From NCBI GenBank assembly GCA_965203355.1, contig OZ241889.1, positions 32,001 to 96,000 of the forward strand: a stretch of DNA of 64,000 bases, given 5' to 3'. Each line of letters starts with the position of its first letter. Within the stretch, counting starts at the first letter, position 1. Below the pieces are notes generated by a model, which was not told the DNA's origin, did not search any database, and saw nothing but the letters and a program-made list of their open reading frames with translations. Source of the stretch: Candidatus Latescibacterota bacterium (GTDB lineage: Bacteria > Latescibacterota > UBA2968 > UBA8231). Positions 9,754 to 12,700 of the stretch are shown piece after piece. A program made the position numbers and the translations under genes.

Positions 9754-12700
9754 GTCGCCCCTCGCGTGGGGGCGTGGATTGAAACTGCCGTGCGATCCTT
9801 CAATTTGATGGCTAATATGGAGTCGCCCCTCGCGTGGGGGCGTGGATTGAAACATCAAACACAACTCTGACGTACCTGACGTGCTGGGTCGCCCCTCGCG
9901 TGGGGGCGTGGATTGAAACAAGAGCTTGCAGACCACGGCTTTGAAATTGGTGGGTCGCCCCTCGCGTGGGGGCGTGGATTGAAACGGAACGGGTGGCCGC
10001 GCTCGAGGCCGCCCGCGAAGTCGCCCCTCGCGTGGGGGCGTGGATTGAAACACCAAGCGTATAGCGGTGAGACCGAGAGGCAACGTCGCCCCTCGCGTGG
10101 GGGCGTGGATTGAAACAATGGTGCCAAGGCGTGGCTAACTCGAGCTGAGGTCGCCCCTCGCGTGGGGGCGTGGATTGAAACAATAACCGCGCATCCTCTC
10201 CTGCCCCCTCTCGTGTCGCCCCTCGCGTGGGGGCGTGGATTGAAACATCGGCACCCCGCCGGTGTCGCAAGCAGGTCCTTGTCGCCCCTCGCGTGGGGGC
10301 GTGGATTGAAACTTGAGGCAGAGGTCCAGTGACCTGTCGGCCACCGTCGCCCCTCGCGTGGGGGCGTGGATTGAAACGGATCTAGTACCGGATAAGACCT
10401 ATCAGGCGAGGTCGCCCCTCGCGTGGGGGCGTGGATTGAAACTTGGGCGCGTGGCAAGCTGGCCGGTCATGACCGGTCGCCCCTCGCGTGGGGGCGTGGA
10501 TTGAAACGAGTATGATCCCTCCGCGACGAACCATCACGTCCTGTCGCCCCTCGCGTGGGGGCGTGGATTGAAACACGAGGTGTGACCTCCGATGGACCCG
10601 ATAATTACGTCGCCCCTCGCGTGGGGGCGTGGATTGAAACCGGAACGGGTGGCCGCGCTCGAGGCCGCCCGCGAGTCGCCCCTCGCGTGGGGGCGTGGAT
10701 TGAAACGGGCGATACGGTGTTGCTGGAAGCGACGGCCTCCGGTCGCCCCTCGCGTGGGGGCGTGGATTGAAACGCGATCGTTGAGGTGGGCATACTGCCG
10801 ACAAATAGTCGCCCCTCGCGTGGGGGCGTGGATTGAAACTTGGGCTAGCCCATTCGGGCGGGGGATGATCGGTGTCGCCCCTCGCGTGGGGGCGTGGATT
10901 GAAACTGGTGTCAGGTCCATGCCAATAGCCGGGCCGAGTCGCCCCTCGCGTGGGGGCGTGGATTGAAACAGAAGAGCCAGTATGTAGGCCCGGCGCTGCC
11001 GGGCGGTCGCCCCTCGCGTGGGGGCGTGGATTGAAACACTGGAGCGACTATCTGGAGGATTGGTCGACGATGTCGCCCCTCGCGTGGGGGCGTGGATTGA
11101 AACTTTGCCCACTGTTTTACCCCGAGCCGGTCGACGCGTCGCCCCTCGCGTGGGGGCGTGGATTGAAACAACGTTCGCAAGGTTGTCGACCTGCCGGTGC
11201 CGCCAGTCGCCCCTCGCGTGGGGGCGTGGATTGAAACGGGTCATCATGTCCATCATGTCCATCATGTCCAATGTCGCCCCTCGCGTGGGGGCGTGGATTG
11301 AAACTTTATTTTTTTTGCGCCCCGTGTCGACGGGGCGGTCGCCCCTCGCGTGGGGGCGTGGATTGAAACGGGTCATTCGGGTCATGTCCAATTACCTCCG
11401 TGTGTCGCCCCTCGCGTGGGGGCGTGGATTGAAACTCGGGACTATCAACCCGCACCGGCACACACGGGCGGTCGCCCCTCGCGTGGGGGCGTGGATTGAA
11501 ACCAGAGACACGGAGGTAATTGGACATTGGACATGGTCGCCCCTCGCGTGGGGGCGTGGATTGAAACCAGATCCAATCGGGTCATGATCAACCTCCTGCG
11601 GCGTCGCCCCTCGCGTGGGGGCGTGGATTGAAACCTTTATAAGAGTCATCCAGTTATCGCCCCACGACGGTCGCCCCTCGCGTGGGGGCGTGGATTGAAA
11701 CTTGATCTGGATAGCTTGGTGGTGGAGGCCCCAGAGTCGCCCCTCGCGTGGGGGCGTGGATTGAAACTGCCGATTTCTCATTTTTTTTTTGCGCCCCGTG
11801 TGTCGCCCCTCGCGTGGGGGCGTGGATTGAAACGTTCGCTGGGATCGACCCAATCCCAGCTTTCCCGTCGCCCCTCGCGTGGGGGCGTGGATTGAAACTT
11901 GAGCGGTCGCGTGACCGTCTCGCCTTGGTCCGTCGCCCCTCGCGTGGGGGCGTGGATTGAAACCAAGTAGGCGTTATGGTTGGTGAAAAGGTCAATGTGT
12001 CGCCCCTCGCGTGGGGGCGTGGATTGAAACGGTAGACTCTGCGCCCTCTTTGCTTGAGATATACGTCGCCCCTCGCGTGGGGGCGTGGATTGAAACCAAC
12101 TCCATTTGTCGGAGCTTACGGCCCACAACCGTCGCCCCTCGCGTGGGGGCGTGGATTGAAACCGCCGGGCCGCCGAGTACGAGCGGCGCTCGGCGGAGTC
12201 GCCCCTCGCGTGGGGGCGTGGATTGAAACCGCCATACTTAACGCTTTGCGTTGAGCGTGCTCCATGTCGCCCCTCGCGTGGGGGCGTGGATTGAAACTAC
12301 CACCGCCCCACCGGCTGGATCAGCCGGTGGCTGTCGCCCCTCGCGTGGGGGCGTGGATTGAAACGGCCCGCTCGAAACGGGCTTGTCAATGGTAGTCAGT
12401 CGCCCCTCGCGTGGGGGCGTGGATTGAAACAACACTGCGGATAGCAAATACATGACTGACACCCGTCGCCCCTCGCGTGGGGGCGTGGATTGAAACTTTT
12501 CAAAAAATTCTCGACGGCCCAAAATGAGGGTCGCCCCTCGCGTGGGGGCGTGGATTGAAACCGCCGGGCCGCCGAGTACGAGCGGCGCTCGGCGGGTCGC
12601 CCCTCGCGTGGGGGCGTGGATTGAAACTGGTCGTGCTACATCCAAGAGTCGAGCGGCCAAGTCGCCCCTCGCGTGGGGGCGTGGATTGAAACGTAACGCG

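What the first reader, a model, noticed from the sequence alone, without database searches (positions are those of the whole stretch)
11238..11602. Neighbouring spacers record one foreign RBS/start locus in three different microduplication alleles
Seen, read on a common strand: ACACGGAGGTAATTGGAC-ATGACCCGA-ATGACCC (11370-11403, 9-nt duplication); CAGAGACACGGAGGTAA-TTGGACA-TTGGACA-TG (11503-11535, 7-nt duplication); ATTGGACATG-ATGGACATG-ATGGACATG-ATGACCC (11238-11272, 9-nt triplication). A relative is GGAGGTTGATC-ATGACCCGA (11568-11602). All centre on a GGAGGT RBS and ATG ACC CG. Inference: the invader either diversifies this locus by tandem microduplication (a possible route of CRISPR escape) or carries many paralogous gene starts, each with its own tandem repeat.
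Basis: partly seen in the sequence, partly recalled or inferred. Interest (0 to 1): 0.72.

Follow-up and report, generated by a model that had tools for sequence, protein, structure and literature searches.

The report
CRISPR spacers resampling a repeat-variable gene start
Three neighbouring memory units of a bacterial CRISPR immune array were copied from the same ribosome-binding-site/start-codon spot of an unidentified invader in versions that differ only by short tandem duplications, a real but fairly ordinary record of repeated encounters with variants of one virus or plasmid.

Summary
Window 9754-17578 (+) is one type I-C CRISPR array of 119 repeats and 118 spacers, lying behind cas3-cas5d-cas8c-cas7-cas4-cas1-cas2. 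Spacers 23, 25 and 27 overlap one foreign locus (GGAGGT, 8 nt, ATG ACC CGA). S25 and S27 share 20 exact bases in opposite orientation. S23 and S25 start at the same site (GGGTCAT).

They differ only by tandem units of 7, 9 and 9+9+3 nt. All three have normal length (33-35 nt), so the duplications were already in the invader DNA.

One correction: the last 10 nt of S27 equal the first 10 nt of the S23 reverse complement. These two can therefore tile one allele, so the minimum is two alleles plus a diverged relative (S28, weakly linked), not three.

The target was not found in any collection searched, so alleles versus paralogues and the TTC PAM stay unproven. Three internal clues support TTC.

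Sibling spacers are common in this array: 23 of 105 unique spacers sit in such a pair. A second family (S67/68/79/88/91) shows repeat-number variation too.

Best reading: repeated, probably primed, resampling at fixed PAM sites from a slippage-prone invader locus. Modest interest.

The parts
1634..3937 (+). cas3 (HD nuclease + helicase), 767 aa ORF
   Evidence: Pfam Cas3-like_C_2, DEAD, HD, Cas3_HD
3965..4774 (+). cas5d
   Evidence: Pfam Cas_Cas5d, E 5e-46
4771..6540 (+). cas8c / csd1, the type I-C signature gene
   Evidence: Pfam Cas_Csd1, E 9.5e-177, full-length match
6540..7484 (+). cas7 (csd2)
   Evidence: Pfam Cas_Cas7, E 1.6e-106
7516..8193 (+). cas4
   Evidence: Pfam Cas_Cas4, E 1.4e-21
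8085..9233 (+). cas1. This is the ORF as listed; the Pfam match begins at residue 46, so the true start is probably downstream of the overlap with cas4.
   Evidence: Pfam Cas_Cas1, E 6.7e-102
9277..9567 (+). cas2
   Evidence: Pfam CRISPR_Cas2, E 7e-26
9568..9753 (+). Putative leader, A+T-rich, between the cas2 stop and the first repeat. It places the newest spacers at the 5' end.
   Evidence: Sequence. The only degenerate repeat of the array is the last one, at 17547. Weak Rfam CRISPR-DR9 matches lie on the + strand.
9754..17578 (+). CRISPR array: 119 repeats of 32 nt and 118 spacers, 105 of them unique
11238..11272 (-). Spacer 23. Read on the invader's sense strand it is ATTGGACATG + 2 x ATGGACATG + ATGACCC, that is 21 extra in-frame bases relative to S25. 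It starts at the same GGGTCAT site as S25.
11370..11403 (-). Spacer 25. Sense strand: ACACGGAGGTAATTGGAC ATG ACC CGA ATG ACC C. The RBS lies 8 nt before the ATG. The unit ATGACCCGA is repeated, and an internal TTC precedes the second GGGTCAT.
11503..11535 (+). Spacer 27, taken from the sense strand. It covers the region upstream of the RBS, the RBS, and TTGGACA twice before ATG. Its last 10 nt equal the first 10 nt of the S23 reverse complement.
11568..11602 (-). Spacer 28, a diverged relative. Sense strand: GGAGGT TGATC ATG ACC CGA TTG GAT CTG. At the site homologous to the S23/S25 PAM it has ATC instead of TTC.
   Evidence: (score 22, a weak link)

Best explanation
The window carries an intact type I-C CRISPR-Cas locus.

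S23, S25 and S27 were captured at different times from the same translation-initiation region of one unidentified invader lineage (virus or plasmid). That region reads GGAGGT, spacer, ATG ACC CGA. S28, an older spacer, came from a more diverged relative.

The invader DNA existed in at least two length variants. These differ only by tandem units: 7 nt between the RBS and the ATG, 9 nt ATGACCCGA, and a 21-nt in-frame block made of ATGGACATG units. Such variants arise by replication slippage, or in the reverse direction by microhomology deletion.

Each variant no longer matches the spacer made from the other, while the flanking TTC PAM sites stay in place. The adaptation machinery therefore took a new spacer from the same PAM (S23 and S25) and from the opposite strand (S27). 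This was most likely primed by the older, still partly matching S27.

Shown: the array, the cas genes, the overlaps, the duplications, and that the duplications predate capture.
Inferred: a single invader lineage, alleles rather than paralogues, the TTC PAM, priming, and selection by CRISPR.
For: System:
- All seven type I-C cas genes are present.
- The array has 119 identical repeats with a degenerate last repeat, which gives the polarity.

Shared locus:
- S25 and S27 share 20 nt on opposite strands, with scores far above the shuffled pairs.
- S23 and S25 begin with the same 7 nt and share both flanks around the variable block.
- There is not one substitution in the shared parts of S23/S25/S27, whereas S28 differs by substitutions.

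Timing of the duplications:
- Spacer lengths of 33-35 nt lie within the array's range of 32-37, mode 34. The duplications therefore predate integration.

Gene-start reading:
- The RBS-to-ATG distance is 8 nt in S25 and 5 nt in S28, and both continue M-T-R.
- The 9- and 21-nt differences keep the reading frame.

Escape in silico:
- S25 against the S23 protospacer matches 13 of 34 positions, 7 of them contiguous from the PAM end.
- S27 against the S25 allele matches 26 of 33 positions, the first 25 contiguous. This is the kind of PAM-distal mismatch that still allows priming.

Clues for a TTC PAM:
- S25 has an internal TTC before its second GGGTCAT.
- S14 equals C + S4, and S51 carries an extra 5' C relative to S48/S53.
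- S31 shows TTC within 1 nt of where the S24 PAM should lie.
- At the homologous site S28 has ATC, and it was taken from another site.

Context in this array:
- 21 spacer pairs score 26 or more, against 0 of 5460 shuffled pairs. They involve 23 of 105 unique spacers, and many pairs are in the same register.
- The control array L001, which has the identical repeat, has 2 such pairs among 68 unique spacers.

Literature, passages read in PMC5602111: type I-C uses a TTC PAM for about 90% of acquisitions, takes spacers of 33-37 nt, has sequence-specific acquisition hotspots and +/-1 slips, and is primed by perfect or mismatched targets.
Against: - No protospacer was found anywhere. The shared 20-mer gave 0 hits in viral, metagenome and genome contigs.
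- S28 patterns gave 0 hits, as did a gapped pattern allowing any repeat number.
- The neighbouring spacers S26, S29 and S30 gave 0 hits.
- blastn of the whole array against phage and plasmid records found only repeat-type or chance matches.
- The nature of the invader, the PAMs, and whether the variants are alleles are therefore untested.
- The S27+S23 tile rests on 10 nt that also occur in S25, so two or three alleles are equally possible.
- If S27 and S23 are one allele, the first ATG lies 15 nt from the RBS, which is awkward for a functional start.
- The order in the array (S27, then S25, then S23) does not give a simple one-way A-to-B series.
- The S28 link is weak: its score of 22 is reached by 8 of 5460 shuffled pairs.
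- Priming cannot be shown from an array alone.
Confidence: 0.55

Rival explanations
1. Paralogous starts in one invader. A single virus or plasmid carries two or three recently duplicated genes or cassettes with the same 5' untranslated region, RBS and first codons. Each has its own short repeat tract, and the host simply sampled several copies.
For: This needs only a second copy of the 20-nt block shared by S25 and S27. The array holds other families that could also be repeated elements of one genome: the CCAAG-repeat family S67/68/79/88/91 and the T-run plus hairpin pair S24/S31. No target genome is available to exclude it.
Against: S23 and S25 share both flanks of the variable block without a single substitution, which is what length alleles look like. 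The other sibling families in the array (S48/51/53, S33/99, S34/113) differ by scattered substitutions in the same register, which fits diverged relatives of an invader rather than intragenomic copies.
Confidence: 0.2
2. The invader's length polymorphism is neutral or phase-variable and has nothing to do with CRISPR. The tract is a simple-sequence contingency locus that tunes expression of the downstream gene, for example by changing the RBS-ATG spacing from 8 to 15 nt. The array merely records it, because only variable loci yield distinguishable sibling spacers.
For: The 7-nt unit lies between the RBS and the ATG and changes the spacing. The 9- and 21-nt units are in frame. Identical re-acquisitions would be invisible or would look like S37/S43, so variable loci are over-represented among visible siblings.
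Against: Only 2-3 copies per unit are seen, whereas classical contingency tracts are longer (recalled, not tested). In its mechanism of origin this rival cannot be told apart from the best explanation; it differs only in what selected the variants.
Confidence: 0.15
3. The duplications arose in the host array after integration (slippage inside the spacers), or they are assembly or sequencing artefacts.
For: The array does contain internal block duplications: S49-57 = S58-66 and S48-51 = S72-75. Recombination or assembly problems in the array are therefore conceivable.
Against: A post-integration duplication of 7-21 nt would lengthen a spacer to 40-55 nt. S23, S25 and S27 are 35, 34 and 33 nt, inside the range of 32-37. 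All 118 other repeats are exact, which argues against error-prone sequence.
Confidence: 0.03
4. Chance resemblance: the spacers come from unrelated elements that share a strong RBS and a common start.
For: GGAGGT plus ATG is generic. The S25/S28 and S23/S25 scores (22) are reached by 8 of 5460 shuffled pairs.
Against: The 20-nt exact S25/S27 match and the S23/S27 score of 27 exceed every shuffled pair. The four spacers lie within six consecutive positions of a 118-spacer array.
Confidence: 0.02

Closest known systems
Primed / interference-driven adaptation with acquisition hotspots in the Legionella pneumophila type I-C system (Rao et al. 2017, RNA 23:1525, PMC5602111; passages read)
   Same: The subtype is the same. 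TTC PAM, 33-37-nt spacers, +/-1 slips, strongly sequence-specific hotspots, and priming by perfect or mismatched targets all fit S14/S4, S51 and the repeated use of the GGGTCAT site.
   Different: That work used a defined plasmid in the laboratory. Here the target is unknown, and the successive spacers come from length variants of the site, which was not part of that study.
Natural CRISPR arrays that sample diverged variants of one viral locus
   Same: These arrays hold sibling spacers from the same target spot, captured at different times from different variants. This array has 21 such pairs.
   Different: The described variants differ by substitutions or recombination. In S23/S25/S27 the only differences are short tandem duplications at an RBS/start codon.
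CRISPR escape of phage T4 by minihomology-mediated deletion (Wu et al. 2021, mBio, PMC8262927; passages read)
   Same: Both involve length changes bounded by 3-13-nt direct repeats that remove or disrupt the protospacer. The 21-nt difference between the S23 and S25 versions is flanked by ATGA and could be one such deletion.
   Different: T4 escapers carried deletions after Cas9/Cas12a cuts. Here the direction (gain or loss) is unknown, the units are tandem, the system is type I, and no experiment links the changes to targeting.
Simple-sequence-repeat contingency loci (phase variation by slipped-strand mispairing; recalled)
   Same: Both have short tandem units in the RBS-ATG spacer and the first codons, and length variants among otherwise identical sequences.
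   Different: Only 2-3 copies are seen. No on/off frame switch was observed, since the coding units are multiples of 3. The carrier genome is unknown.

Membership tests
Type I-C CRISPR-Cas | cas3 with HD nuclease and helicase domains | tested here: met
   Pfam HD, Cas3_HD, DEAD, Cas3-like_C_2 on 1634-3937
Type I-C CRISPR-Cas | cas8c (csd1) signature large subunit together with cas5d and cas7 (csd2); no cas6 | tested here: met
   Cas_Csd1 E 9.5e-177, Cas_Cas5d, Cas_Cas7. Every ORF of 100 aa or more between 1634 and 9567 on the + strand is assigned to another cas family, so none is left over for a cas6.
Type I-C CRISPR-Cas | Adaptation module cas4-cas1-cas2 next to the array | tested here: met
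   the array starts 186 nt after cas2
Type I-C CRISPR-Cas | 32-nt repeat with a GC hairpin and a 3' ATTGAAAC handle | tested here: met
   Repeat sequence. That this form is typical of I-C is recalled. Rfam gives only weak CRISPR-DR9 matches below the gathering score.
Type I-C CRISPR-Cas | 5'-TTC PAM next to the protospacers | tested here: inconclusive
   No protospacer was found. The only clues are internal: the TTC inside S25, the extra 5' C of S14 and S51, and the TTC in S31 at the S24 site.
Primed adaptation (type I) | An older spacer that still partly matches the variant from which newer spacers were taken | tested here: met
   S27 is further from the leader than S25. It matches the S25 version at 26 of 33 positions, the first 25 contiguous, assuming the 5-nt left flank is shared.
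Primed adaptation (type I) | New spacers cluster around the priming site on both strands | tested here: met
   S23, S25 and S27 overlap within about 60 nt. S27 is on the opposite strand to S23 and S25.
Primed adaptation (type I) | Strand bias and distance gradient over the target; dependence on Cascade and Cas3 | not testable with these tools
Simple-sequence contingency / VNTR locus | Tandem short units in the 5' region of a gene | tested here: met
   Units of period 7 and 9 at the RBS/ATG
Simple-sequence contingency / VNTR locus | Copy number differs between individuals of one lineage at one locus | tested here: inconclusive
   The flanks are identical, but no invader genomes were found, so paralogues are not excluded.
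Simple-sequence contingency / VNTR locus | Length change switches expression (frame or spacing) | tested here: inconclusive
   The coding differences are 9 and 21 nt, both in frame. The 7-nt unit would move the RBS-ATG spacing from 8 to 15 nt if S27 and S23 are one allele. No expression data exist.

The most novel reading that the evidence does not exclude
The invader carries a slippage-prone tract that straddles the RBS and start codon of a gene and works as a built-in evasion device. Gains and losses of 7-, 9- and 21-nt units keep the gene readable but repeatedly rewrite two overlapping protospacers on opposite strands. The host can answer only by re-sampling from the fixed TTC sites. A second repeat locus recorded in the same array (the CCAAG-unit family S67/68/79/88/91) would be another such tract. 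Repeat-length hypervariation would then be a general anti-CRISPR strategy of this invader lineage.
Probability: 0.12. Interest if true: 0.6.

Novelty: new member of a known kind. Interest (0 to 1): 0.3.

Why it matters
Arrays that hold several versions of one protospacer are a natural record of the host-invader arms race. Escape is usually described as point mutation in the PAM or seed, or as deletion. Here the only differences between versions are short tandem duplications at a gene start, and a second spacer family shows the same kind of variation.

If the variants are alleles under CRISPR selection, repeat slippage would be added to the known escape routes. It would also explain why the same PAM site is sampled again and again.

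As things stand it is a well-documented example of repeated sampling, not a new mechanism.

Tried and rejected
Target searches, all empty or uninformative:
- The shared 20-mer, searched in viral, metagenome and genome contigs.
- An S28 24-mer in viral contigs and an S28 22-mer in metagenome contigs.
- A gapped pattern tolerant of any repeat number, in viral contigs.
- 22- to 24-mers of the neighbouring spacers S29, S26 and S30, in viral contigs.
- blastn of the whole array against 50,697 phage records. The single hit, MT836291, matches the repeats.
- blastn of the whole array against 72,556 plasmid records. Only repeat-type matches and short chance matches came back.

Hits rejected:
- An S23 28-mer hit one viral contig (L003). 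The contig is A+T-rich and both flanks differ, so this is a chance match of a tandem repeat.
- An 18-mer of the S48/S53 family hit one 46%-GC viral contig (L004). It has no TTC at the expected PAM position and its flanks diverge, so it was not accepted as the target.

Other checks:
- Self-targeting: there is no spacer match outside the array in the window beyond 11-19-nt chance hits.
- No whole genome is held for the window.
- Sibling arrays: the identical repeat occurs in a Krumholzibacteriia MAG (L001) and in an uncultured Prevotella contig (L002). They share no spacers with this array. FolD is only 55% identical to the L001 genome, so these are not close kin, and the host taxon was not determined.
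- Flipped integration of S27 was rejected, because in the tiled allele the base triplet before its reverse complement is not TTC (reasoning).
- S30 as a downstream piece of the same gene was rejected: only 8 nt are shared and the score is 12.
- Earlier-findings look-ups by place and by sequence were blank.
- Literature: searches for CRISPR escape by tandem duplication found 5 and 19 papers holding all terms (3 and 15 listed). None of the listed titles or abstracts describes microduplication escape in phages. Subscription journals are not covered by these searches.
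Full report
WHAT IS THERE

The finding lies inside one long CRISPR array. Window 9754-17578 (+) holds 119 copies of the 32-nt repeat GTCGCCCCTCGCGTGGGGGCGTGGATTGAAAC and 118 spacers. Only the last repeat (17547) has a mismatch, and no copy lies on the other strand.

Upstream, on the same strand, lie these genes (Pfam):
- cas3, 1634-3937
- cas5d, 3965-4774
- cas8c/csd1, 4771-6540
- cas7, 6540-7484
- cas4, 7516-8193
- cas1, 8085-9233
- cas2, 9277-9567

This is a complete type I-C system. 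A 186-nt A+T-rich leader (9568-9753) and the degenerate terminal repeat put the newest spacers at the 5' end. The order of capture was therefore S28, S27, S26, S25, S24, S23. Weak Rfam CRISPR-DR9 matches are on the + strand. The rest of the window is ordinary chromosome, with HflX, Mrp antiporter, SerRS, FolD and peptidases, at 59.5% G+C. No whole genome is held, and the host taxon was not determined.

CHECKING THE OBSERVATION

On the invader's sense strand they read:
- S27: CAGAGACACGGAGGTAATTGGACATTGGACATG
- S25: ACACGGAGGTAATTGGACATGACCCGAATGACCC
- S23: ATTGGACATGATGGACATGATGGACATGATGACCC
- S28: GCCGCAGGAGGTTGATCATGACCCGATTGGATCTG

S25 and S27 share 20 exact bases and lie in opposite orientation in the array.

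Local alignment scores are 40 for S25/S27, 27 for S23/S27, and 22 for both S23/S25 and S25/S28. In one set of mononucleotide-shuffled spacers (5460 pairs) the maximum was 24, 8 pairs reached 22, and none reached 26.

The S25-S27-S23 chain is therefore far beyond chance. The S28 link is weak on score. It rests on the shared layout (GGAGGT, 5-8 nt, ATG ACC CGA) and on adjacency in the array.

Tandem units were checked. S23 has a run of 20 at period 9, S27 a run of 9 at period 7, and S25 a run of 7 at period 9. In all, 10 of 105 unique spacers have such a run, against 1.5 +/- 1.2 (maximum 6) in 200 shuffles.

TWO CORRECTIONS

First, the last 10 nt of S27 equal the first 10 nt of the S23 reverse complement. 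S27 and S23 can therefore be read as two windows on one 58-nt allele. The data require two alleles of this block (S27+S23, and S25) plus the relative S28, not three. The same 10 nt also occur in S25, so a three-allele reading is equally allowed.

Second, relative to S25 the S23 version carries 21 extra bases, two ATGGACATG units plus ATG. This block is in frame and is flanked by ATGA on both sides. A single slippage series or a single microhomology deletion could interconvert the two versions.

THE DUPLICATIONS PREDATE CAPTURE

S23, S25 and S27 are 35, 34 and 33 nt long. The unique spacers of the array range from 32 to 37 nt, and 56 of 105 are 34 nt. A duplication of 7-21 nt arising inside the array would have produced spacers of 40 nt or more. 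This removes the in-array slippage and artefact readings.

IT LOOKS LIKE A GENE START

GGAGGT lies 8 nt before the ATG in S25 and 5 nt before it in S28, and both continue Met-Thr-Arg. The 9- and 21-nt differences keep the frame. The 7-nt unit lies between the RBS and the ATG. If S27 and S23 are one allele, the first ATG is 15 nt from the RBS, which is awkward for a working start. This is a point against the tile, or a hint that the variant is poorly expressed.

PAM

No protospacer was found, so TTC is not shown directly. Three internal clues fit it:
- S25 contains TTC immediately before its second GGGTCAT, the 7 nt with which both S23 and S25 begin.
- S14 equals C + S4, and S51 has an extra 5' C relative to its siblings S48 and S53. 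This is as expected for a one-base slip that includes the last PAM base.
- S31 shows TTC within one base of where the S24 PAM should lie.

At the site homologous to the S23/S25 PAM, S28 has ATC, and S28 was indeed taken from a different site 11 nt away.

The Legionella type I-C study reports about 90% TTC, spacers of 33-37 nt, slips, flips, strong sequence-specific hotspots, and priming by perfect or mismatched targets (PMC5602111, passages read).

CONSEQUENCES FOR RECOGNITION (in silico)

Anchored at the PAM end, the S25 spacer matches the S23 protospacer at 13 of 34 positions, and only the first 7 are contiguous. Each version therefore escapes the other's spacer.

S27 matches the S25 version at 26 of 33 positions, the first 25 contiguous, assuming the 5-nt left flank is shared. 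An older spacer with PAM-distal mismatches is the classic situation for primed adaptation. It would account for new spacers being taken within a few bases, on both strands.

CONTEXT IN THE ARRAY

Sibling spacers are frequent here. There are 21 pairs scoring 26 or more, against 0 of 5460 shuffled pairs, and they involve 23 of 105 unique spacers.
- Some are identical or slipped re-acquisitions: S37/S43 and S4/S14.
- Some differ by scattered substitutions in the same register (S48/S51/S53, S33/S99, S34/S113), which indicates diverged relatives of an invader.
- One further family (S67, S68, S79, S88, S91) consists of CCAAG-containing units of 5-10 nt in different numbers behind a T-run.
- S24/S31 differ in the length of a T-run next to a GC hairpin.

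Eight of the 10 repeat-bearing spacers belong to just two families. A control array with the identical repeat (L001, from a Krumholzibacteriia MAG) has 2 such pairs among 68 unique spacers and 3 of 68 repeat-bearing spacers. L002 has 0 pairs among 17 unique spacers and 1 of 17 repeat-bearing spacers.

Resampling of variant targets is thus a general habit of this array. The finding is its clearest case in which the variation is purely repeat length.

SEARCH FOR THE TARGET

Everything came back empty or uninformative:
- The shared 20-mer, in viral, metagenome and genome contigs.
- S28 patterns.
- A gapped pattern allowing any tract length.
- The neighbouring spacers S26, S29 and S30.
- blastn of the whole array against phage and plasmid records, which gave only repeat-type or chance hits.

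An S23 28-mer hit one A+T-rich viral contig with different flanks, which is a chance tandem-repeat match. An 18-mer of another family hit a 46%-GC viral contig with no TTC at the expected PAM position and diverging flanks. No spacer matches the rest of the window.

INTERPRETATION

Most likely (about 0.55): an intact type I-C system repeatedly sampled one slippage-prone translation-start region of a single invader lineage that circulated in at least two length variants. An older spacer came from a diverged relative. The fixed TTC sites and a partly matching older spacer favoured re-acquisition at the same spot, by hotspot use and/or priming.

Rivals:
- Paralogous starts within one invader genome (0.2).
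- The same length polymorphism, but neutral or phase-variable rather than CRISPR-selected (0.15).
- In-array slippage or artefact (0.03).
- Chance (0.02).

Whether the duplications were selected by CRISPR is inference. Known escape routes are point mutations and microhomology deletions (PMC8262927, passages read). My two literature searches listed nothing on microduplication escape in phages, and subscription journals are not covered. An earlier follow-up in this scan (e1-547454) judged a comparable family of sibling spacers in another genome to be real but ordinary. I agree for the general phenomenon.

VERDICT

This is a new example of a known kind of record, with an unusual indel-only flavour. 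Interest is about 0.3.

Noticed in passing
window 9234-9264 (+): A lone degenerate copy of the CRISPR repeat (31 nt; two substitutions and one missing G) sits exactly in the 43-nt gap between the cas1 stop and the cas2 start. It is 490 nt upstream of the array. It might be a remnant, or a repeat-like regulatory element.
   Followed up: partly
window 14139-14172, 14205-14238, 14933-14966, 15524-15557, 15722-15755 (spacers 67, 68, 79, 88, 91): This is a second spacer family with repeat-number variation. It consists of CCAAG-containing units of 5, 8, 9 or 10 nt behind a T-run (TTTT or TTTTTT, then GCCGCC). Four of the five spacers start in the same register. The units are not all multiples of 3, so the target is probably non-coding.
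   Followed up: partly
window 11305-11337 and 11768-11801 (spacers 24, 31): These are overlapping spacers from a T-run plus GC hairpin (GCGCCCCGTGTCGACGGGGCG). The T-run is 8 nt in one and 10 nt in the other, and the upstream bases differ. S31 shows a TTC where the S24 PAM should be.
   Followed up: partly
window 12957-13515 = 13548-14106; 12891-13121 = 14470-14700: There are block duplications inside the array. Spacers 49-57 recur as spacers 58-66, and spacers 48-51 recur as spacers 72-75. This could be recombination between repeats, or an assembly effect.
   Followed up: no
spacers 48/51/53, 33/99, 34/113 (e.g. 12891-12924, 13089-13121, 13220-13253): These sibling spacers lie in the same register and differ by scattered substitutions. 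That points to diverged relatives of one invader sampled at the same PAM. S51 and S14 carry an extra 5' C, consistent with a one-base slip over a TTC PAM.
   Followed up: partly
all 105 unique spacers: T is over-represented at spacer position 1 (37 of 105) and position 2 (34 of 105), against 20% T overall. This could reflect a sequence preference next to the PAM, or T-rich PAM contexts.
   Followed up: no
L001 (Krumholzibacteriia MAG contig) and L002 (uncultured Prevotella contig): The identical 32-nt repeat occurs in two unrelated lineages that share no spacers with this array. This suggests that this type I-C repeat type moves horizontally.
   Followed up: partly
window 60101-63205 (+) and 42026-46348 (+): A 1034-aa protein with an N6/N4 DNA methylase domain, and a 1440-aa protein with He_PIG and FlgD-Ig-like domains. 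Neither was examined further.
   Followed up: no
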